Below are positions 299 through 7,746 of a stretch of DNA of 36,289 nucleotides, one piece after another. Under the pieces are notes generated by a model. The model saw only the letters and a program-made list of their open reading frames with translations. It ran no database searches and was not told the DNA's origin. The translations under genes and the position numbers were made by a program. The stretch's first letter is position 1; the number at the start of each line of letters is the position of its first letter. The DNA comes from an uncultured Vampirovibrionales bacterium (GTDB taxonomy: Bacteria > Cyanobacteriota > Vampirovibrionia > Vampirovibrionales > Vampirovibrionaceae). The stretch is taken from assembly GCA_964351765.1 (NCBI GenBank), contig CAYGPY010000002.1, forward strand, positions 1 through 36,289, written 5' to 3'.

Positions 299-352
299 GG
301 TTTTTTTATTTATTCTTTCTTCAATAACAGTAACCACTATGAATAAAATGGC

Positions 353-559
353 TTAATTCAAACTATGCCAAGGCAGCATATCAGCCCAACTATCAGGACT
401 AAAGTTACCAATTTCTTCACGTTGTTTTTGGTTCACCATAAAAATATGTTTTAAATACATAATCTCAGCGCGGAACATGGGATCTACTTTTACTAGATTT
501 TTCTCGGGCTCATTAAGAATACCGAGTGTTAAAGACATTTCTAATTCTGTCATTGGCAT
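353..559 (-). CDS. Small hypothetical cytoplasmic protein (68 aa)
   Basis: ORF of 68 aa with a GAGAGG-like purine tract about 11 nt upstream of the ATG. I recognise no motif. It ends next to the bidirectional terminator at 259-298. Confidence 0.4.
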   Translation of the reverse strand: MPMTELEMSLTLGILNEPEKNLVKVDPMFRAEIMYLKHIFMVNQKQREEIGNFSPDSWADMLPWHSLN

Positions 560-710
560 GGGGCTTGCGACCTCTCTAAACTTATATTGACTCTGACTAT
601 CTAGAGCGTTGAAAGATAAACTAAACTTTTGGTTACGGGGATAACCGGATTGTATAAAATCGATTAACGTGACAATTCATTCGCTCTAATATAAAAAAAA
701 CAATCTTTAA

Positions 711-741
711 GGCAAAATTGCCTATTTTGCCCTATTTTTTT
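711..741 (+). terminator. Orphan terminator-like hairpin with no upstream + strand gene
   Basis: Perfect 8-bp stem GGCAAAAT (711-718) / ATTTTGCC (724-731) with loop TGCCT, followed by CTATTTTTTT (732-741). It sits in the 312-nt gap between the minus-strand ORF 353-559 and the OsmC-like gene. Confidence 0.3.
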
Positions 742-913
742 ACACACTGATACACTTGCATACTTAGCTCATACACCGGCTATTACAGAATTGACCTATT
801 TTTAGGGCTGTTGGTTAAGATAACGCCTTCTAAAAAAGAGAAAAGCCACATACAATAGATATCAAGTTTAAATGTACACACAGAGTATTGTGAACGAGTT
901 GAGGGACTTTATC

Positions 914-1327
914 ATGACATCATCCATTGCCGTATCCGTCGCGTCGACACCGGGTCACGCCTACCGTCAAACTATCAAAGCCGGCAACCACGAATTTATT
1001 GCCGACATCACGCAAAAAGAAGGGGGCGACGATGCCGCAGCATCACCACACCAAATGCTACTCGCCGCCCTAGGTGCGTGTACTAACATGACACTTCAAA
1101 TGTACGCACAGCGTAAAGGCTGGGACGTACAATCGGTTTATACCGATGTGATGGAAAAGAAGGACGACGCCACCGGCAAACCCCACATTATTAAAGACAT
1201 TACGATTACCGGAAACATTACCGAAGAGCAAAAAGTACGCTTAAAGAGCATTGCTGCCAAATGCCCTGTTAATAAAGTGATTACAGGCGAAAAAATTATG
1301 GAAAGCACCTTAGAACTAATGGGCTAA
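914..1327 (+). CDS. OsmC/Ohr-family peroxiredoxin-like protein
   Basis: Two conserved Cys contexts typical of OsmC (AALGACTNMTLQMYA and IAAKCPVNKVI). GAGGGA sits 7 nt upstream of the ATG at 914, so the ORF-track start at 872 is probably too long. Stop is TAA at 1325-1327. Confidence 0.85.
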   Translation: MTSSIAVSVASTPGHAYRQTIKAGNHEFIADITQKEGGDDAAASPHQMLLAALGACTNMTLQMYAQRKGWDVQSVYTDVMEKKDDATGKPHIIKDITITGNITEEQKVRLKSIAAKCPVNKVITGEKIMESTLELMG

Positions 1328-1350
1328 GACAAGTCTTACTCTGACCATCA

Positions 1351-1386
1351 AAAAAGCGCCGATGAAATTCACATCGGCGCTTTTTA
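1351..1386. terminator. Bidirectional rho-independent terminator
   Basis: GCGCCGATG (1356-1364) pairs with CATCGGCGC (1372-1380). An A5 run precedes and a T5 run follows. It lies between the convergent genes ending at 1327 (+) and 1419 (-). Confidence 0.7.
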
Positions 1387-1418
1387 TATTAGAGCTCTTA
1401 AATAAGTCTCGTTAAGCC

Positions 1419-1850
1419 TTATTTAAATTCACCTAAAAGTGCTGGCACATTACGGCAATCAACATTATGGCCAAGTAATCCGGTTCGCGTAACACGGTTG
1501 GTGCTATCAACCCAGAACAAACCAAAGCCGTTAATCATCTTTTGCTTTGGCATGTTGGCCGTACTCGCGTGATGGTATTCTTGCTGAAGCAAGTGACCTA
1601 AAGCAGTACGATCGCTAACCGAAGCGGGTGTGTAATGCACTTCTTCTAAGGCGCCATTTTTTGTACAGCTTTCAACTTTCACCTTGATTTGGTCGTGCCA
1701 CGTTTCATTCACTTTTACTTTTTCGTGTGTCACAGCAACCACTTTACCGGCAACATGTGGCGGTAAATCGGTTTGCGCTTGTACTGATACAGCAACACCG
1801 CTTAAAACGATGGCTGTAACTTGCAAGCTAACTAATAATTTTTTCAACAT
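1419..1850 (-). CDS. Secreted small protein with two conserved Cys, paralogue A (unknown family)
   Basis: Signal peptide MLKKLLVSLQVTAIVLSGVAVSVQA-Q. AAGGAG lies 7 nt upstream of the ATG at 1850, and the ORF-track start at 1874 would include this SD. The mature part aligns with the neighbouring ORF 1922-2479. Confidence 0.75.
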   Translation of the reverse strand: MLKKLLVSLQVTAIVLSGVAVSVQAQTDLPPHVAGKVVAVTHEKVKVNETWHDQIKVKVESCTKNGALEEVHYTPASVSDRTALGHLLQQEYHHASTANMPKQKMINGFGLFWVDSTNRVTRTGLLGHNVDCRNVPALLGEFK

Positions 1851-1921
1851 GGGTTTACTCCTTAAATACTTCAATTATTCAAACCATCGTTGATGATCTG
1901 ATAAAAAATAAAAATTCGTGT

Positions 1922-2479
1922 TTAGAAGCCGAAACGGCCAACACCCGGTACACTAACACCAGTAGGGATTCGACCAAATCCGCCACGACGTTTTGTTGCT
2001 GGAGCCGAGGTTGCAGGTGTGCTGGTGGTTGCACTCGCACCTGTAGACGCTCCGGCACTACCCGTAATGGCATTTTCACCAATATTAGTGCCACATTCAT
2101 AGTTATAACCCCAGAAGGTAGTTTTGTGAATGACATTTTTATCATCCAAATTCAGTGTCACGTGACCGTTAACACTATTCATGTACTGGCTTTTGGTTAC
2201 GGTGTGACGACCCGCCTGAACGGTATCGTTATACAAGAAACCCAATGCATTGGCATCAGATACAGCTCCCGGAGCGTAGCCTCCGGTTACGTATTGAGCG
2301 GAGTTATCACAAGGCTTAACCGTCACGGATACCTTATCGGCCCAGCCGTCAGTTACTTTCACGTGCTCGTGAAAAACAGCTTGAACCTTACCCGTTACTT
2401 CACGGGCAAAACTGGTTGCTGATAATAAAACAATACCAGCCAACATCAATGTGGCGGCTTTTTTAGAACTATGTCGCAT
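1922..2479 (-). CDS. Secreted small protein with two conserved Cys, paralogue B, with an S/T/A/P-rich linker and a G/F/R-rich C-terminal tail
   Basis: Signal peptide MRHSSKKAATLMLAGIVLLSATSFA. An AGGAGAGGGA SD lies upstream. The core (VTGKVQAVFHEHVKVTDGWADKVSVTVKPC...AVSDANALG...YNYEC) is co-linear with paralogue A. The tail reads GSAGASTGASATTSTPATSAPATKRRGGFGRIPTGVSVPGVGRFGF. Confidence 0.75.
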   Translation of the reverse strand: MRHSSKKAATLMLAGIVLLSATSFAREVTGKVQAVFHEHVKVTDGWADKVSVTVKPCDNSAQYVTGGYAPGAVSDANALGFLYNDTVQAGRHTVTKSQYMNSVNGHVTLNLDDKNVIHKTTFWGYNYECGTNIGENAITGSAGASTGASATTSTPATSAPATKRRGGFGRIPTGVSVPGVGRFGF

Positions 2480-2552
2480 TCTATCCCTCTCCTAAAGTCG
2501 ATATTATTTAGATGCTGATATAAACTCGCATCATCATTGACATTAAAACATA

Positions 2553-2598
2553 ATAAAACACCACCGGCTTTGCGCAATGACAAAGAGACGGTGGTGTT
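2553..2598 (-). terminator. Rho-independent terminator of the Clp/Hsp100-like gene
   Basis: AACACCACCG (2557-2566) pairs with CGGTGGTGTT (2589-2598). Read on the minus strand the hairpin is followed by TTTTATTA. It lies 22 nt downstream of the stop at 2620. Confidence 0.6.
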
Positions 2599-2619
2599 TC
2601 AATTCTATTTTAAACGCCC

Positions 2620-5600
2620 TTAAGCACTTAGATTTAATTTTTTAACCCGTGGACCCGATTTCCATTGCGGCATCCAGTTTCCTGACTCAGCGTCGTAGCC
2701 CATAGTGAGCACCGCATTGGTTTTATCACGCGAACTCAGCAACAAACGAGCGACTTTGTTTTCAATCGTCTTCTGGAAGACACGACGAATTTCACGCGCA
2801 CCACCTGGTAAGGCGTCATCAGCCGATGCGGTTGAGCCCGTAGTATCGTTTTCTTTAATGGCAGTTGCAAAACCAATGGCTTGCTTCTTGCTTTCAAGTT
2901 GAACTGTGGCCACACCCAAGTCAATTAAACGCTGCTTGGCATCATCAGTCAATTCAATTTTCAAGTTGCGTTGCTTAAGTGCATCTTGATTATTATAGCG
3001 TTCCACAAAGGTCTGCAAGATACCGTCTACATCGCTCCGTGTTAAATTGCGATATGGCGCAATAAAATCAATCCGGTTCACAAATTCAGGACGGAATTTA
3101 AAACCATTATCAGCCGCCACATTGGACAACAATCCACGAACGTTGCTGTCAAGTTGCATCGATGCGATTTCAGGATCCAGTCCTTTAGAATCAGCCTTAT
3201 GGCTGTTCAACAAATCACGCAACGCTTCTTGGTGAAGGTTACTGGTCATCATCACGGCACAGTTGGAGAAGTCAACAGGCTGACCATGGTTATCAATCAA
3301 ACGACCTTCTTCAAGAATCTGAAGTAGCACGTTAATCACATCGGGGTGGGCTTTTTCAATTTCATCAAACAATACAACCGAATAAGGGTTCTTACGCACT
3401 TTCTCGGTTAAGGCATCGGCACTATCAAACCCAACGTACCCTGGAGGGGCTCCAAGAATTTTAGACACAGCATGTTTTTCCATAAAATCCGTCATATCCA
3501 GCGGAATCAAGTTGCCATGGAAAAACTCTTTAGCAATAACTTTGGCTGTTTCCGTTTTACCCACACCCGTTGGGCCCGGTAACAACATCGAGAACACAGG
3601 ACGATCACCGGCCATATCCAACTCATTGCGAATCGCTAAACTCAGCATCGCTTCACGCACCACTTCAAGCGCTTCAGACTGACCTTCAATTTCTTCAGCC
3701 ACAATGTCATTGGCACGCATAATGCGATCAAGTTCATTCTCATCTAAATCATTAAACGGACTACCCGTTAATACGGCTTTGGCATAACGCAAATGACGAT
3801 CTGTGACATCGGTTTGAGCACCATCTTGACGGGCTTCAAATTCAGCAATCAAATCTGTTTCACGCTGACTCACCTGATCAATATGGTCAGGCAGACCTTG
3901 AAGATCACGCACACTGGCTGGATCAGGCGTCGCATTAGGATTGCGCTGATAATAAGACATGAGCTGATGGTAGCGCATGTTCATTTGTTGTTTCTTATCC
4001 GCAATGCCAGCCAGTTCTGGTGGTTGCCCAACAGCAATACTGGCAGCCAACTGAATCAAGTCAATCGAGCCACTCATCATGTTATCGGGGTTTTCACGCT
4101 GATTAATTTTAAACACTTTTTCAATGGTTTGTGGTGAAAATTCCACATTGTATTTTTTGGCCAGGCGCATCGCCTCTTCACCTAAAATGGTGAGCATTTC
4201 GTCTTTATTGAGGCCGGTCAAAGGCACTTCTTTCATGCGACGCTGAAAAGCAGGATCATTTCTCATTGAAGATTTACGCCAGTCTTCAGGGGTTGTAGCT
4301 CCCAGCATAGAGATGTTTAAATCAGGGTTATCCAATAGCGGTTTTTTGATCAATTCTAAAATATTTTGATTTCCACTGGCTGCAATCGTGTGAATTTCAT
4401 CAATAAAAACAACAACTTTACGTTCAGGATTCTTTTTAGAAAAAGCTGTAATTTCTTTTACCACAGCTTGCACACGTTTTTCCAAGTCACCACGATAGGT
4501 GGTACCTGCTACCAAGGCATTGGTATCCAACTCAAACATCACGGCATCTTTAAGGGGTTCAGGTACTTTACCTTCAAGAATACGTTGCGCCAAACGATAA
4601 GCTGTATAGGTTTTACCTTCACCGGCTTTAGCCAACAATAAGGCATGGCTGCGTTGGCCATCAGCGGCTAAAATAGTTTCTACCTGCTGGGTTGCTGACT
4701 CACGCAAGTACACTTGTGGCAATTCATTATTGTACGCGGCCATCATATAATTGCGACCATATTCTTTGAGGTTTTTAAATTGTTTATCAACCTCTTCTAG
4801 ATCCGTTAAAATCGGATCCTTAGGTGCTTTTACAATATCAGTACCTGGGTTAGCTTTAGGTTTAGTTTTGGGATTCGCTTTTTTGGCTCCCTTAGCGCCT
4901 TGGACTTTACCAGTACCTGTTGCAGGAGGCTCTTCTTCTACGTCTTCTTCAGCAGATGAGTTTGGCACGTTTTTCAATTCAAGCGTAACGTCATTGCCCT
5001 CTTTTTTAAATTCAAAAAGAGAACCCTCAACAGCCACGTTGGATACCCCCAGACTCAGTAATTTATCTCGAACATCCTCAAGTCCAGCATAAGCAAACAT
5101 ACTATACGGTTGTCTAACATTGGAGATAGGTTCACCTTCCCAACCATACTGATAGTACGTCCCATCCAAAACACGCATAAGGTTCACGGCATACTTCATA
5201 GGTGCTTCGTCATACACTTCTTTAGGCATTTCATTGACTAAGCTTTGCATAGCAGGTAACAACCCTGATGGATGGGTGTCACCTAAATCAACAACAAACT
5301 TACCCACTTCTTTATAAAAGTTGCTTTGAAACTCAAATAAATCAATCGGCCCCTTTGTAGCACCCCTCATAACTGCCGTGAAAGCATTATAAAAATTAAG
5401 CTCTTCATTACTAACAGAAGGTGAGGGTCCTTCAGGTGAGTTGTAGTCGATGTAGAGGTCATACGCATTTTTCAGCAACACCGACATAATGTGAGCCGAG
5501 TTCACCGGCACACCCTGTTCTTGAGCAAGGTTATCCGCCTGAAGTAAGGCATCAGCAATAGGAGCCGCAAACTGACCATACAAATCAAAGCGCTCTTCAT

Positions 5601-5814
5601 CATCAAGCTTATCAACATCATCAACTTGTCCAAATCGAACGGAGGAAGCAATTAAATCCTTACCCAAAAAAGCCTGAGGCTTAGATGGTTTCGTTGCTAA
5701 TGCGCTTACACTGCCTTCAAACACAGGCAATGCAGCTTGTTTTTTTACAGCATCCTGCTTTATTGGCGATTGCGCTAAACGATTTAAACCATTGGAACCC
5801 ATTAATGTTGTCAT
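2620..5814 (-). CDS. Atypical two-ring Clp/Hsp100 AAA+ ATPase (ClpB/ClpV/ClpC-like) with a long novel N-terminal extension
   Basis: D1 Walker A is LLLAKAGEGKT (encoded about 4610-4642) and Walker B is VVVFIDEIHTI. D2 Walker A is GPTGVGKT (3553-3579), with Walker B VVLFDEIEKAHPDV and the GYVGF motif. One Clp_N-like repeat (FAAPIADALLQADNLAQEQGVPVNSAHIMSVLLKN) is present. About 350 aa precede D1, including an acidic then K/P-rich linker. Confidence 0.85.
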   Translation of the reverse strand: MTTLMGSNGLNRLAQSPIKQDAVKKQAALPVFEGSVSALATKPSKPQAFLGKDLIASSVRFGQVDDVDKLDDEERFDLYGQFAAPIADALLQADNLAQEQGVPVNSAHIMSVLLKNAYDLYIDYNSPEGPSPSVSNEELNFYNAFTAVMRGATKGPIDLFEFQSNFYKEVGKFVVDLGDTHPSGLLPAMQSLVNEMPKEVYDEAPMKYAVNLMRVLDGTYYQYGWEGEPISNVRQPYSMFAYAGLEDVRDKLLSLGVSNVAVEGSLFEFKKEGNDVTLELKNVPNSSAEEDVEEEPPATGTGKVQGAKGAKKANPKTKPKANPGTDIVKAPKDPILTDLEEVDKQFKNLKEYGRNYMMAAYNNELPQVYLRESATQQVETILAADGQRSHALLLAKAGEGKTYTAYRLAQRILEGKVPEPLKDAVMFELDTNALVAGTTYRGDLEKRVQAVVKEITAFSKKNPERKVVVFIDEIHTIAASGNQNILELIKKPLLDNPDLNISMLGATTPEDWRKSSMRNDPAFQRRMKEVPLTGLNKDEMLTILGEEAMRLAKKYNVEFSPQTIEKVFKINQRENPDNMMSGSIDLIQLAASIAVGQPPELAGIADKKQQMNMRYHQLMSYYQRNPNATPDPASVRDLQGLPDHIDQVSQRETDLIAEFEARQDGAQTDVTDRHLRYAKAVLTGSPFNDLDENELDRIMRANDIVAEEIEGQSEALEVVREAMLSLAIRNELDMAGDRPVFSMLLPGPTGVGKTETAKVIAKEFFHGNLIPLDMTDFMEKHAVSKILGAPPGYVGFDSADALTEKVRKNPYSVVLFDEIEKAHPDVINVLLQILEEGRLIDNHGQPVDFSNCAVMMTSNLHQEALRDLLNSHKADSKGLDPEIASMQLDSNVRGLLSNVAADNGFKFRPEFVNRIDFIAPYRNLTRSDVDGILQTFVERYNNQDALKQRNLKIELTDDAKQRLIDLGVATVQLESKKQAIGFATAIKENDTTGSTASADDALPGGAREIRRVFQKTIENKVARLLLSSRDKTNAVLTMGYDAESGNWMPQWKSGPRVKKLNLSA

Positions 5815-6095
5815 CTTCGAAAACCCTATTTAATCTATTCATAACGCGCATGAAACCGTCATGCGTCTCCACGTGCGCACAATACAGATCAATCGTCATA
5901 AGTGTAAACAGTCATTCCAAACACAGTGATAGGCGATATATATGTTTGACGATAACGAGGCCACAAGCCACGCTATGACTTATTAATCTATGATGAAACA
6001 CGGGATAAAGCTGATAATCAACTTACTCTATTAAACCCCAAACATACCGTGGATTGCCCTGAAACACTTATATATTAAGAGGTATTAAGTCCCTA

Positions 6096-6620: not shown

Positions 6621-7643
6621 CTAATTTTCGTCACGATGCCCTAGGACACGCCAGCTCATTTTATTGCGGTGTGTTATTGAATCCAAAGCAAGTTTGTTAT
6701 CGTGATACCAGCTCAAGAGCGTTTCTTTTTTAAGGTAATGCGTCACGGGTGGAATCAGTTGATCGTTAACCATACCCACCACATACCCAAAGCCATACCG
6801 ACGAAGCCACTGAAAATACTGATAGTGAGGCAGTTTTTCAGACATTCCTTTTAAAGGCCATGGCAAACCCGGGTGATAAAACGTATGAAGAAGCGGATAA
6901 AGAATACAACTCAAGGGCACTGCCAACACAACCCGAACCATCATTACAGGCAGTCGGTGGCAAATCGCGCGTAAGGGCTCCACAATCAAGCGGATAAGTC
7001 GGTTGTTTTCCCAGCCATACACCCAAATAAACACTTGGCCTTGCGCTTTTTTAGCAAGAGGCACAATGGCGTTAAATCCATCAATGGGCTTTGGCAGATG
7101 GTGAAGAACCCCCAAGCTAAACACCAGATCAATGCTCTCTTGTTTAATCGGAGGCTCTAATAAGTCAGCCTGAATAAAGCTTAGATTCGGGTTATCCATC
7201 AACATCGACACACCCGCATCAAGGGCATGGCTAATTTCTAAACCAATGACTTGTTTAGCACCGTATTGAGCAGAATAAGCCGAGAAGCCACCCAGCCCGC
7301 TCCCCATTTCCATCACCACTTTATCTTTAAAGTCATCGGGCTGAAGCGGAAGCACCCAATCTCGAAACTGTTCTTCCATATACGGGTTTACGGTGCGTGC
7401 TTTGGCATAAGCCACCCACGCATCACCAAAATTTTCAGCAATATGTTTTTGCTTCTTAGTAGAAATCGTATCCAGATTAATAAACCGAGGCACATAATCG
7501 GTGATGGGGTATGTATGCTGACATGCTGAGCAAACAAGTTTACCCTGATACACTCTCTCGTGAGCATACTCGGCATCGGTCAGGCAAAGCTCATCATGTC
7601 CGCATGCTAAACAATAGAATAAAGATGTGATTTCGGGGTTCAT
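6621..7643 (-). CDS. Class I SAM-dependent methyltransferase with an N-terminal Trm112-like CxxC...CxxC zinc ribbon
   Basis: Zinc ribbon FYCLACGH...LVCSACQHTYPITDYVPRF. SAM motif I is VVMEMGSGLGGFS, with motif-II-like DLVFSLGVLHHL. The hydrophobic C-terminal extension is W/Y/P-rich. The ATG at 7643 is preferred over the TTG at 7712 used by the ORF track. Confidence 0.8.
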   Translation of the reverse strand: MNPEITSLFYCLACGHDELCLTDAEYAHERVYQGKLVCSACQHTYPITDYVPRFINLDTISTKKQKHIAENFGDAWVAYAKARTVNPYMEEQFRDWVLPLQPDDFKDKVVMEMGSGLGGFSAYSAQYGAKQVIGLEISHALDAGVSMLMDNPNLSFIQADLLEPPIKQESIDLVFSLGVLHHLPKPIDGFNAIVPLAKKAQGQVFIWVYGWENNRLIRLIVEPLRAICHRLPVMMVRVVLAVPLSCILYPLLHTFYHPGLPWPLKGMSEKLPHYQYFQWLRRYGFGYVVGMVNDQLIPPVTHYLKKETLLSWYHDNKLALDSITHRNKMSWRVLGHRDEN

Positions 7644-7746
7644 GTATAAACGTTCATTCCCAACAACAACACTTCTATAATAATACAGAATGGATGTCCT
7701 GTACGACGGCAATGCGAAAGTTAGATATCAAACGTCTCTATAAGGT

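What the first reader, a model, noticed from the sequence alone, without database searches (positions are those of the whole stretch)
2620..5814. Atypical Clp/Hsp100 ATPase with a ~350-aa novel N-terminal region, a K/P-rich linker and a shortened middle domain
Both AAA+ rings are clear, but D1 Walker A is unusual (AKAGEGKT instead of the usual GEPGVGKT). Only one Clp_N-like repeat is recognisable. It is followed by ~180 aa with no motif I recognise, and then by an acidic patch and a lysine/proline-rich segment (EEDVEEEPPATGTGKVQGAKGAKKANPKTKPKANPGTDIVKAPKDP, encoded about 4845-4940). The segment between the D1 small domain and D2 (GQPPELAG... to ...VTDRHLRYAKAV) is ~75 aa against ~125 aa in ClpB. 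That gives a ClpC/ClpV-length M-domain. I see no obvious hydrophobic-Gly-Phe/Leu ClpP-docking tripeptide in D2. The C-terminus carries an extra ~60 aa. There are no T6SS genes nearby, so it is not a conventional ClpV, and it does not look like a housekeeping ClpB.
Basis: partly seen in the sequence, partly recalled or inferred. Interest (0 to 1): 0.6.

Follow-up and report, generated by a model that had tools for sequence, protein, structure and literature searches.

The report
New tagged Hsp100 unfoldase subfamily
This gene encodes an intact but very unusual protein-unfolding machine (Hsp100/Clp type) that belongs to an undescribed, fast-evolving subfamily found only in relatives of the algal predator Vampirovibrio, and it starts with the same short "address tag" as about twenty unrelated proteins of the same genome.

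Summary
Both AAA+ rings keep every catalytic motif. The M-domain has ClpC/ClpG length. There is no ClpP-docking loop. No named Clp family model reaches its cut-off.

Three things are new.
1. The protein is not a lone orphan. It falls in a clade with 100/100 support together with 10 long (969-1183 aa) Hsp100s from three other genera of the same Vampirovibrionales family. They share the odd D1 P-loop (x-G-E/A-G-K-T/N).
2. A subfamily profile shows that residues 79-126 match the first Clp_N repeat (E 8e-5). The next ~160 aa remain unassigned.
3. Residues 1-63 form a disordered leader that ends in V-R-F-G-Q. The same leader heads two other aberrant Hsp100 genes and about 15-20 unrelated proteins in this genome (NUDIX, methyltransferase, HEAT-repeat). 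Orthologues in other genera keep it. This scan had already noted the same tag on other DNA (e1-5241723).

Canonical ClpB, ClpC and ClpP are also present. The gene appears to be a separate transcription unit, and its neighbours are not conserved.

Best reading: a ClpP-independent unfoldase that carries a lineage-wide address tag. Whether it is exported is open.

The parts
2620..5814 (-). Complete ORF, 1064 aa, two-ring Hsp100/Clp ATPase (P0001)
   Evidence: Coding signal is present in all segments.
5641..5814 (-). Disordered N-terminal leader, residues 1-58. It is S/A/K/P/Q-rich and has no hydrophobic core.
   Evidence: AF2 pLDDT is below 40 for residues 1-63. The region has no homologue by sequence search.
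5626..5640 (-). Leader-end motif V59-R-F-G-Q63 ('RFG' tag), followed by the acidic run DDVDKLDDEE
   Evidence: The same motif lies near the N-terminus of two other aberrant Hsp100 paralogues and about 15-20 other ORFs. [RK]FG[NQSGT] has a density of 2.1 and 1.8 per 10^4 residues in the first 60 aa, against 0.45-0.69 later. The motif is kept in orthologues.
5356..5601 (-). Four-helix unit, residues 72-153. Residues 79-126 are homologous to the first Clp_N repeat.
   Evidence: AF2 with the subfamily alignment gives pLDDT 84-91. hhalign of the subfamily profile against a Clp_N profile gives E 8e-5, prob 61%, and the score beats 30/30 shuffles.
4963..5355 (-). Unassigned part of the N-region, residues 154-284: predicted helices 159-255 and a beta-hairpin at 267-280
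   Evidence: Low-confidence AF2. No Pfam hit, no PDB fold match, and hhalign against Clp_N is not above controls.
4801..4962 (-). Disordered linker, residues 285-338: an acidic patch (EEDVEEE) followed by a K/P-rich run
   Evidence: Read from the sequence. AF2 pLDDT is below 45. Length and charge vary across the subfamily.
4030..4779 (-). AAA+ module D1, residues 346-595, with the subfamily P-loop AKAGEGKT and all catalytic residues kept
   Evidence: The end branch is very long in the D1 tree (7.4 substitutions/site).
3772..4029 (-). Short coiled-coil M-domain, residues 596-681 (two helices, 599-624 and 632-665)
   Evidence: 62 residues are deleted relative to ClpB. The protein aligns in one piece with ClpC 6em9. 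Helices come from AF2.
2734..3747 (-). AAA+ module D2 with its small domain, residues 690-1027. Walker A/B and the GYVG pore loop are invariant in the subfamily. No [LIV]-G-[FL] loop lies between MTSN and RPEF.
2803..2898 (-). 32-aa insertion in the D2-small domain before the sensor-2 GAR (residues 973-1004). It contains A-I-G-F.
   Evidence: Its length and sequence are not conserved in the subfamily.
2623..2733 (-). C-terminal beta-hairpins and tail (residues 1028-1064), ending in ...NLSA
   Evidence: AF2 strands at 1034-1053. The tail ends in hydrophobic-x-[VSFM]-A in 8 of 11 subfamily members.
2553..2600 (-). Intrinsic terminator directly after the stop codon
   Evidence: A hairpin of -27.1 kcal/mol with z -6.2 and 0 of 200 shuffles as stable, followed by a U-run.
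5879..5908 (-). Sigma-70-like promoter candidate (TTTACA-18-TATTGT) in the 281-nt gap upstream
   Evidence: A consensus scan only, and such matches are no more frequent than in shuffles. This is weak evidence.

Best explanation
P0001 is a functional, ClpP-independent, two-ring Hsp100 unfoldase. It belongs to an undescribed, fast-evolving Hsp100 subfamily that was found only in one family of the Vampirovibrionales (non-photosynthetic cyanobacterial relatives, the lineage of the algal predator Vampirovibrio).

Shown:
- D2 is a canonical threading motor.
- D1 in this member keeps its P-loop Lys/Thr, Walker B Asp-Glu, sensor-1, two Arg fingers and the pore Tyr.
- The M-domain is a single two-helix coiled coil, as in ClpC, ClpG and ClpL.
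- No ClpP-docking tripeptide lies at the loop position.

Inferred: the protein forms a hexamer and pulls polypeptides through its central pore without handing them to a peptidase.

Substrate choice and location are set by the N-terminal 345 aa. This region has a disordered leader of about 60 aa ending in V-R-F-G-Q, an acidic patch, one Clp_N-type four-helix repeat, about 130 unassigned residues, and an acidic then Lys/Pro-rich flexible linker.

The leader is a lineage-wide tag. Two other aberrant Hsp100 paralogues and about 15-20 unrelated soluble proteins carry it. I therefore infer that the protein is recognised by the same, still unknown, targeting or export route as those proteins. Whether it works in the producer's cytoplasm or is exported is not settled. 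I put export at about 0.25-0.3.
For: Motifs and architecture.

Coding signal is present in all segments.

Subfamily:
- A search with D1+M finds a third class of hits (107-191 bits, against about 100 bits for ClpB/ClpC) with 974-1197-aa open frames in 10 of the 24 other genomes searched in the same family. None was found in the other two families of the order or in the other 137 genomes sampled from the class.
- P0001 and these 10 proteins form a clade with 100/100 support on a concatenated D1+D2 tree.
- They share signatures: x-G-E/A-G-K-T/N, GATTPEDWRKSS, a short M-domain and a leader.

D2 motifs are invariant across the subfamily, which indicates purifying selection.

Leader tag:
- Enrichment near N-termini.
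- Present in all three aberrant Hsp100 paralogues and absent from canonical ClpB/ClpC.
- Kept in orthologues of four unrelated families.

Clp_N repeat. Confident four-helix unit.

Canonical ClpB, ClpC (with the PTPLGFS loop) and ClpP are present elsewhere in the genome, so this is an extra, specialised paralogue.
Against: - There is no biochemical evidence.
- The AF2 models are poor overall (mean pLDDT 54.6 and 50.4), and the fold search gave nothing.
- D1 is decaying in several subfamily members: the pore aromatic is lost, Walker B is DD, or Arg fingers are lost. The subfamily may therefore run mainly on D2, and D1 activity in P0001 is inferred only from its residues.
- The tag's function is unknown. 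No T4SS VirB4, T6SS or contractile-sheath genes were found.
- The genome is a fragmented MAG (448 contigs, 84% complete).
Confidence: 0.68

Rival explanations
1. It is an exported or injected effector unfoldase. The leader would be a secretion signal, for instance for the second FlhA/SctV-type export gate that every genome of the order carries. P0001 and the other tagged Hsp100s would be delivered, with tagged enzymes, into a prey or host cell. There, ATP is available and they would dismantle protein complexes.
For: - The leader is disordered, has no hydrophobic core, is low in acidic residues near its start, and is shared by heterogeneous soluble enzymes (NUDIX, SAM methyltransferase, HEAT-repeat proteins). 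That pattern is typical of type III-like N-terminal signals (general knowledge).
- Orthologues keep it.
- All 49 order genomes have two FlhA/SctV paralogues.
- The lineage includes a known predator of algae (PMC4451040).
- The protein evolves fast, as effectors often do.
- Another agent of this scan reached the same 'probably export' reading for the tag on other DNA (e1-5241723). That is not independent proof.
Against: - No bacterial Hsp100 is known to be secreted (general knowledge).
- The second FlhA could simply belong to a second flagellar system.
- No needle, secretin or translocator gene was examined.
- There is no co-variation: the gate and the tag occur across the order, while this subfamily occurs in one family only.
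- The lifestyle of this MAG is unknown.
Confidence: 0.25
2. It is a cytoplasmic stand-alone disaggregase of the ClpG/ClpK/ClpL kind. The extra N-terminal region would bind aggregates directly, and the protein would give stress tolerance independently of DnaK. The leader would be a regulatory or adaptor-docking element.
For: - The architecture matches ClpG: an extra N-terminal part in front of a Clp_N-type element, a single-wing M-domain, no ClpP loop, C-terminal extra residues and a Lys/Pro-rich disordered segment (PMC8024975).
- The ClpK model aligns in one piece over residues 347-946.
- ClpK and ClpL are among the best plasmid hits, at 31-32% identity.
Against: - ClpK and ClpG models score 285 and 270 bits against cut-offs of 1900.
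- The tree does not join P0001 to ClpK or ClpL.
- The N-terminal 345 aa contain no Cys, whereas the ClpK reference begins with a Cys-rich stretch (MARKQCQVCGQ...).
- No sHSP, ftsH or other heat-island genes lie nearby.
- No CIRCE element was found.
- This reading does not explain why the same leader heads NUDIX, methyltransferase and HEAT-repeat proteins.
Confidence: 0.3
3. It is a ClpP-coupled protease subunit that docks through a non-canonical element, such as the A-I-G-F in the D2-small insertion or the C-terminal ...NLSA tail.
For: - I-G-F is present at 981-983 in a probably flexible 32-aa insertion.
- x-G-F occurs at the aligned place in 3 other members.
- ClpP paralogues exist in the genome.
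- The tail ends in hydrophobic-x-x-A in 8 of 11 members.
Against: - The insertion is absent or unrelated in 7 of 11 members.
- About two [LIV]G[FL] tripeptides are expected by chance in 1064 aa (own estimate from residue frequencies).
- The canonical loop position holds K-G-L, and no member has a hydrophobic tripeptide there.
- No clpP gene is adjacent.
Confidence: 0.05
4. It is a decaying, functionless paralogue, or an assembly chimera that joins an unrelated 5' gene to a truncated clp gene.
For: - Branches are extremely long.
- The N-terminal region has no match in 1.8-5.8 billion proteins.
- The source is a fragmented MAG.
Against: - The frame is open for 1064 codons with genome-typical codon usage throughout.
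- Every catalytic motif is intact.
- The same leader, N-region and two-ring architecture occurs in 10 relatives, some from assemblies of 7-30 contigs.
Confidence: 0.03

Closest known systems
ClpG / ClpK (stand-alone disaggregases of Pseudomonas and Klebsiella; PMC8024975)
   Same: Two AAA+ rings, an extra N-terminal part ahead of a Clp_N-type element, a single-wing coiled-coil M-domain, no ClpP loop, extra C-terminal residues and a Lys/Pro-rich disordered segment. The ClpK model aligns in one piece over residues 347-946.
   Different: - Scores are 270-285 bits against cut-offs of 1900, and the tree does not join them.
- There is no Cys-rich N1 domain.
- The Lys/Pro-rich segment lies between the N-region and D1, not at the C-terminus.
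- P0001 carries the RFG leader.
- It evolves fast, whereas ClpG is highly conserved.
- It is not in a heat-resistance island.
ClpC (e.g. S. aureus 6em9, B. subtilis 3j3s)
   Same: Best solved-structure match (E 8e-87). The alignment is continuous over residues 348-967 because the M-domain lengths agree.
   Different: - No [LIV]-G-F ClpP loop.
- No Pfam Clp_N double repeat.
- It lies outside the ClpC clade.
- The genome has its own canonical ClpC, with 77-79% identity to Vampirovibrio ClpC.
ClpB (TIGR03346)
   Same: Highest NCBIfam score (366 bits) and the best database hits (32% identity). It lacks a ClpP loop. D2 is 47% identical to Bacillota ClpB over 246 columns.
   Different: - The cut-off is 1232 bits.
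- The M-domain lacks 62 residues, including the second wing that ClpB uses to bind DnaK (function from general knowledge; deletion).
- The D1 P-loop differs.
- A ClpB-type N-terminal/D1 piece (contig C218) is present elsewhere.
Dual N-terminal export signal of early flagellar type III substrates (extreme N-terminal signal plus an F-x-x-x-hydrophobic gate-recognition motif about 30-40 residues in; recalled from the literature, not checked here)
   Same: A disordered N-terminal leader with a short Phe-centred motif some tens of residues from the start. Some tagged proteins read F-T-I-R-F or F-S-I-K-F. Two FlhA-type gates occur per genome.
   Different: The consensus here is hydrophobic-[RKQ]-F-[GAS]-polar. 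The tagged proteins are enzymes and ATPases, not axial flagellar proteins. No binding or export has been shown.

Membership tests
Hsp100/Clp class I (two-ring AAA+ unfoldases) | Two AAA+ modules, each with Walker A, Walker B, sensor-1, an Arg finger and a pore-loop aromatic. D2 is of AAA_2 type with a ClpB_D2-small domain. | tested here: met
   Pfam AAA_2 at 6e-52, two AAA hits and ClpB_D2-small.
ClpB | Score at or above the NCBIfam equivalog cut-off (TIGR03346, 1232 bits) | tested here: not met
   366 bits
ClpB | Long two-wing M-domain (about 120 aa) | tested here: not met
   62 residues are deleted relative to 29 ClpB sequences. AF2 predicts two helices only.
ClpB | Standard double-repeat Clp_N N-domain | tested here: inconclusive
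   No Pfam hit. The first repeat is detectable with the subfamily profile. The second repeat was not demonstrable.
ClpC / ClpA / ClpE (ClpP partners) | [LIV]-G-[FL] docking loop between sensor-1 (MTSN) and the Arg-finger helix of D2 | tested here: not met
   The loop reads HKADSKGLDPE, and none of the 11 subfamily members has the tripeptide there. The genome's own ClpC has PTPLGFS.
ClpC / ClpA / ClpE (ClpP partners) | Placement inside the ClpC clade, or a ClpA model score at or above 993 bits | tested here: not met
   The ClpC clade excludes it. The ClpA model scores 325 bits.
ClpV / TssH | Score at or above the TIGR03345 cut-off (885 bits) and presence of the T6SS sheath it recycles | tested here: not met
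   299 bits. No VipB/TssC and no sheath family was found in the 84%-complete genome. It lies outside the ClpV clade.
ClpG / ClpK | NCBIfam exception models at or above 1900 bits, and a ClpG-specific N1 domain | tested here: not met
   270 and 285 bits. The alignment starts only at residue 347. The N-terminal 345 aa contain no Cys, whereas the ClpK reference starts with a Cys-rich stretch.
ClpG / ClpK | DnaK-independent disaggregation activity | not testable with these tools
   This needs biochemistry.
New Vampirovibrionales Hsp100 subfamily (defined here) | Monophyly with the 10 long Hsp100s of the same bacterial family; the D1 P-loop x-G-E/A-G-K-T/N; a short M-domain; and an N-terminal leader with a hydrophobic-x-F-[GASQ] motif | tested here: met
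   100/100 support. Signatures are shown.
'RFG'-leader tagged proteins of Vampirovibrionales | A disordered leader of about 15-75 aa without a hydrophobic core, ending in hydrophobic-[RKQ]-F-[GAS]-polar | tested here: met
   P0001 has ...DLIASSVRFGQVDD at residues 53-66. AF2 pLDDT is below 40.

The most novel reading that the evidence does not exclude
The RFG-type leader is the signal of an undescribed (or unrecognised type III-like) export route that occurs across the Vampirovibrionales. This genome would send three different Hsp100-type ATPases through that route. They would be the first bacterial unfoldases delivered outside the producer, for instance into algal or bacterial prey, to take target protein assemblies apart.
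Probability: 0.2. Interest if true: 0.88.

Novelty: new variant of a known kind. Interest (0 to 1): 0.6.

Why it matters
Hsp100 proteins fall into a few well-defined, slowly evolving families: ClpA, B, C, E, L, V and G/K. This gene points to a further clade with several unusual properties. It is restricted to one family of uncultured relatives of a predator. It evolves many times faster than its housekeeping paralogues, and its first ring is partly decaying. It carries an N-terminal tag that is shared with about twenty unrelated enzymes.

If the tag is an export or targeting signal, the clade gives a direct experimental way into how Vampirovibrio-like bacteria handle or attack other cells. It would also be the first case of unfoldases acting as cargo.

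Even on the conservative reading, it adds a ClpP-independent unfoldase with a new substrate-selection region. The subfamily-specific P-loop and the modular N-region can be tested by standard biochemistry.

Tried and rejected
1. Sequence searches with the N-terminal 345 aa alone found nothing real: the word-based search of 5.8 billion proteins, full HMMER against 1.84 billion representatives, and 60 relatives' genomes. The single hit, P0121, is a translated tandem repeat whose score is inflated by 11 copies, so I rejected it.

2. A search with the AAA core among 5.8 billion proteins returned only generic ClpB at 31-37% identity. The subfamily turned up only when whole genomes of the order were searched with D1+M.

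3. The single-sequence hhalign of the N-region against Clp_N scored 17.4. This is not above shuffles (up to 15.7) or the reversed sequence (19.8). The subfamily profile superseded it.

4. The fold search of the N-region model against the PDB gave a best E of 0.18, which is meaningless.

5. The 'operon' with the 1564-aa beta-helix gene, the methyltransferase and the small secreted proteins is unlikely. There is a 281-nt gap upstream and a strong terminator downstream. None of these neighbours recurs next to any of the 10 subfamily genes. In one genus the flanks are an oligopeptide ABC ATPase gene and an AMP-binding enzyme gene.

6. A defence-system reading is not supported. PADLOC gives only generic AAA matches.

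7. No plasmid copy was found. The best plasmid hit has 33% identity.

8. I-G-F as a ClpP loop is not supported, because it is not conserved.

9. No CIRCE heat-shock operator lies in the window.

10. A genome-contig scan with paralogue C42 found no relatives.

12. The tag resembles the 'FGLK' motifs of chloroplast transit peptides. This is recalled from memory only and was not tested, so I do not rely on it.


Full report
OBSERVATION

The window holds one long minus-strand ORF at 2620-5814, encoding 1064 aa. A codon-usage log-odds score built from long ORFs of the same genome is positive in frame 0 and negative in the other two frames for all seven segments of the gene. That includes the leader, the N-region and the linker, so the whole frame is coding and native in style.

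Pfam finds AAA_2 (738-916, 6e-52), AAA twice, and a fragment of ClpB_D2-small. It finds no Clp_N and no AAA_lid_9. Nothing appears in the isolated N-terminus even at E<=10.

NCBIfam models all stay far below their cut-offs:
- ClpB 366 bits (cut-off 1232)
- ClpA 325 (993)
- ClpV 299 (885)
- ClpK 285 (1900)
- ClpG 270 (1900)

The best solved structure is S. aureus ClpC (6em9, E 8e-87). It aligns in one piece with residues 348-967. ClpB structures align in two pieces because of the M-domain.

All catalytic motifs are present:
- D1: AKAGEGKT at 395-402, VFIDEIH, YRG at 440-442, GATT, and RR at 525-526.
- D2: GPTGVGKT, GYVG, LFDEIEKAH, MTSN, RPEFVNR and GAR.

Measured against 29 ClpB sequences, P0001 has a large extra N-terminal region, 62 residues deleted in the M-domain, small insertions at 873-877 and 895-905, a 32-aa insertion at 973-1004 before sensor-2, and about 12 extra tail residues.

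THE ORGANISM AND ITS OTHER CLP GENES

The window is contig 2 of a 3.09-Mb MAG with 448 contigs, 84% complete. Its canonical ClpC fragment is 77-79% identical to ClpC of 'Vampirovibrio sp.' and 'Vampirovibrionales' MAGs. The genome therefore belongs to the Vampirovibrionia (Melainabacteria), whose cultured member preys on Chlorella (PMC4451040).

The genome also holds:
- a canonical ClpC, split over contigs C187 and C77, with a PTPLGFS ClpP loop;
- a ClpB-type N-terminal/D1 piece (C218);
- ClpP (C281) and further ClpP-family genes.

The refutation condition 'the only ClpB in the genome' is therefore not met. The genome has three more aberrant Hsp100-type genes: C42 (1023 aa, two rings), C127 (572 aa, a single D2-type ring) and the C397 fragment.

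NOT A LONE ORPHAN: A FAMILY-RESTRICTED SUBFAMILY

Searches with the N-terminal 345 aa found nothing real. The AAA core found only generic ClpB at about 32% identity among 5.8 billion proteins.

Searching the genomes of the order with D1+M (residues 346-700) gave a different picture. As expected, ClpB and ClpC of every genome matched at about 100 bits. In addition there was a third class at 107-191 bits, with collinear coverage and open frames of 974-1197 aa. It occurred in 10 of the 24 other genomes of the same family, in three genera, and in none of the 24 genomes of the other two families. It also did not occur in the other 137 genomes in a 151-genome sample of the class.

On a concatenated D1+D2 tree with ClpA, ClpB, ClpC, ClpK, ClpL and ClpV references, P0001 and these 10 proteins form one clade with 100/100 support on a stem of 1.38 substitutions per site. 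This clade is separate from the ClpC clade and sits in an unresolved group with ClpB, ClpK and ClpV. Without these relatives, P0001 is unplaceable: its end branches are 7.4 (D1) and 2.75 (D2), against medians of 0.13 and 0.32.

The clade shares the following features:
- the P-loop x-G-E/A-G-K-T/N, so the 'unusual Walker A' is a clade signature;
- the GATTPEDWRKSS motif (P0001, L136, L137; L142 has the near-identical GATTPDDWRKSA);
- the short M-domain;
- the lack of a ClpP tripeptide at the loop position in all 11 members.

D2 Walker A/B and the pore loop are invariant. D1 is decaying in several members: the pore aromatic is lost, Walker B is DD, or Arg fingers are lost. P0001 keeps all of these residues.

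THE N-TERMINAL REGION

AF2 on the full length with a ClpB alignment gives a poor model (mean pLDDT 54.6). It predicts two long M-domain helices (599-624 and 632-665) and a disordered stretch at 281-338.

AF2 on residues 1-345 with the 11-member subfamily alignment gives a confident four-helix unit at 72-153 (pLDDT 84-91). Everything else is below 50. The PDB fold search on this model is uninformative.

A subfamily profile of residues 66-128 matches positions 3-51 of a Clp_N-domain profile built from ClpB and ClpC N-domains. The hhalign result is E 8e-5, prob 61% and score 28.8, while 30 column-shuffled controls score at most 10.3. P0001's N-region also aligns collinearly with that of paralogue C42, with a score of 28.0 that exceeds all 30 shuffles (maximum 23.4). 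The alignment is anchored on RFG, the acidic run and the first helices. C42 itself has a recognisable Clp_N domain (prob 74%, E 3e-5).

So one Clp_N-type repeat is present. Residues 154-284 remain unassigned. The acidic then Lys/Pro-rich linker (285-338) is disordered and variable in the subfamily.

THE LEADER TAG

All three aberrant Hsp100 paralogues start with a polar, disordered leader of 45-70 aa that ends in a common motif:
- P0001: ...LIASSVRFGQVDD
- C42: ...SPISLRFGNSSDD
- C127: ...DSFTIRFGNAKK

Canonical ClpB and ClpC lack such a leader. The same arrangement heads at least 15 other ORFs, including HEAT-repeat proteins, a SAM methyltransferase, a NUDIX hydrolase, a coiled-coil protein next to C127, and orphans.

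The statistics are as follows. RFG[NQ] occurs 24 times in ORFs of at least 150 aa, and 12 of those lie in the first 90 residues. Permuted motifs occur 5-11 times, with 1-3 early. [RK]FG[NQSGT] has a density of 2.1 and 1.8 per 10^4 residues in the first two 30-residue bins, against 0.45-0.69 further in. That is 26 observed against about 9 expected. The early enrichment of [RK]GF[ST] in the same table is probably due to prepilin-type leaders; the genome does encode prepilin-type ORFs.

Orthologues in other genera keep a hydrophobic-x-F-[GAS] motif after a non-conserved leader:
- single-ring Clp family: VCFGQ, LQFGT, VLFGT, VRFGS;
- methyltransferase family: PRFGS, VSFGA;
- NUDIX family: PAFGH, LRFGY, VQFGG twice, PRFGG, HVRFAS;
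- the P0001 subfamily: VVRFGN, LVQFQGK, VQFSGG, VKFAAA, LFAGK, V[MV]VFAGRG and VVAFAGRA.

This is therefore a conserved short linear motif of the lineage. After I had found it, a look-up showed that another agent of this scan had described the same 'RFG leader tag' in another Vampirovibrio-like genome and read it as a probable export tag (e1-5241723). That is agreement on the observation, not independent proof of function.

WHICH MACHINERY?

In this 84%-complete genome I found no VirB4, no contractile sheath and no TssC.

There are two distinct FlhA/SctV paralogues, with 30% identity in the cytoplasmic domain. All 49 genomes of the order have two. In this genome the divergent copy is followed by a 123-aa acidic ORF that begins MQMNSIAPQFGATL.

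This fits a type III-like route but does not show one. The second gate may simply be flagellar.

GENOMIC CONTEXT

A 281-nt gap lies upstream of the gene. Directly after the stop there is a hairpin of -27.1 kcal/mol (z -6.2) followed by a U-run. The gene is probably its own transcription unit.

None of its neighbours recurs next to any of the 10 subfamily genes. Those neighbours are the 1564-aa beta-helix protein, the methyltransferase and the small secreted proteins. In one genus the subfamily gene sits between an oligopeptide ABC ATPase gene and an AMP-binding enzyme gene. PADLOC gives only generic AAA hits, and there is no CIRCE element. Context therefore offers no partner.

MECHANISM

Shown:
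- an intact two-ring Hsp100 with a conserved D2 motor;
- a single-wing M-domain;
- no ClpP loop;
- one Clp_N-type repeat;
- a lineage-wide leader tag;
- membership of a new, fast-evolving clade.

Inferred:
- a hexameric, ClpP-independent unfoldase that threads substrates chosen by its N-region;
- regulation through the M-domain as in ClpC, ClpG and ClpL (PMC8024975; PMC11006417, from its title and abstract only);
- recognition of the leader by the same unknown route as the other tagged proteins.

I give 0.68 to this core reading. Within it, a cytoplasmic stand-alone disaggregase role (about 0.3) and export as an effector unfoldase (about 0.25) are both open.

NOVELTY

The protein is a new variant of a known kind: a new Hsp100 subfamily. 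I found no description of the subfamily or of the tag in the held literature. The tag itself had already been noted by this scan on other DNA.

Noticed in passing
Own genome contig C42 (G000:C42, about 320-3390, minus strand; locus L103 covers the 5' part): A second aberrant two-ring Hsp100 (1023 aa). It has the RFG leader (SPISLRFGN), a recognisable Clp_N domain, an insertion of about 45 aa after the D1 Walker A, a long M-domain and an acidic C-terminal tail. Its N-part has no relative in the 49 genomes of the order.
   Followed up: partly
Own genome contig C127 (locus L098) and L099-L102: A single-ring (D2-type) Clp-like ATPase of 535-574 aa with an RFG-type leader, conserved in four other genomes of the order. 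In this genome the gene just upstream encodes a 340-aa coiled-coil protein with the same leader (SVKFGS). In the D2 tree this family groups with ClpV (95/90), which may be long-branch attraction.
   Followed up: partly
Own genome contigs C12, C174, C304 and C376; all 49 genomes of the order: Every genome of the order has two FlhA/SctV (FHIPEP) paralogues, scoring about 880 and about 700 bits. In this genome the divergent copy (C304) is followed by a 123-aa acidic ORF that starts MQMNSIAPQFGATL. Whether the second gate is flagellar or an injectisome was not determined.
   Followed up: partly
Own genome, e.g. C13 (three genes), C79, C96, C100, C196, C222, C338, C5, C73: About 15-20 otherwise unrelated soluble proteins carry the disordered leader ending in hydrophobic-[RK]-F-G-[NQS]. 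They include HEAT-repeat proteins, a SAM methyltransferase, a NUDIX hydrolase and orphans. Several cluster on contig C13.
   Followed up: partly
window 2623-2733 (-) and the C-termini of L136-L145: The subfamily's C-terminal tail ends in hydrophobic-x-[VSFM]-Ala in 8 of 11 members (NLSA, NQVA, SFVA, LAFA, ERMA, SVTA). This is reminiscent of C-terminal degrons or docking tails. It is unexplained.
   Followed up: no
window 2553-2600 (-): A very stable terminator hairpin (-27.1 kcal/mol, z -6.2) separates the clp gene from the two downstream paralogous secreted 2-Cys protein genes. Those genes have their own AGGAG ribosome-binding site.
   Followed up: yes
window 6621-7712 (-): The SAM methyltransferase upstream begins with a Cys-rich stretch (CLACGHDELC...CSACQH) that looks like a zinc ribbon. 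It has a weak PADLOC match to mad2 (1e-11). No link to the clp gene was found.
   Followed up: no
Own genome contig C397: A fragment of another two-ring Clp whose D1 has a degenerate Walker B (ILFLPLIH) and the P-loop GPDGVGKR. Its D1 branch is extremely long (10 substitutions/site).
   Followed up: no
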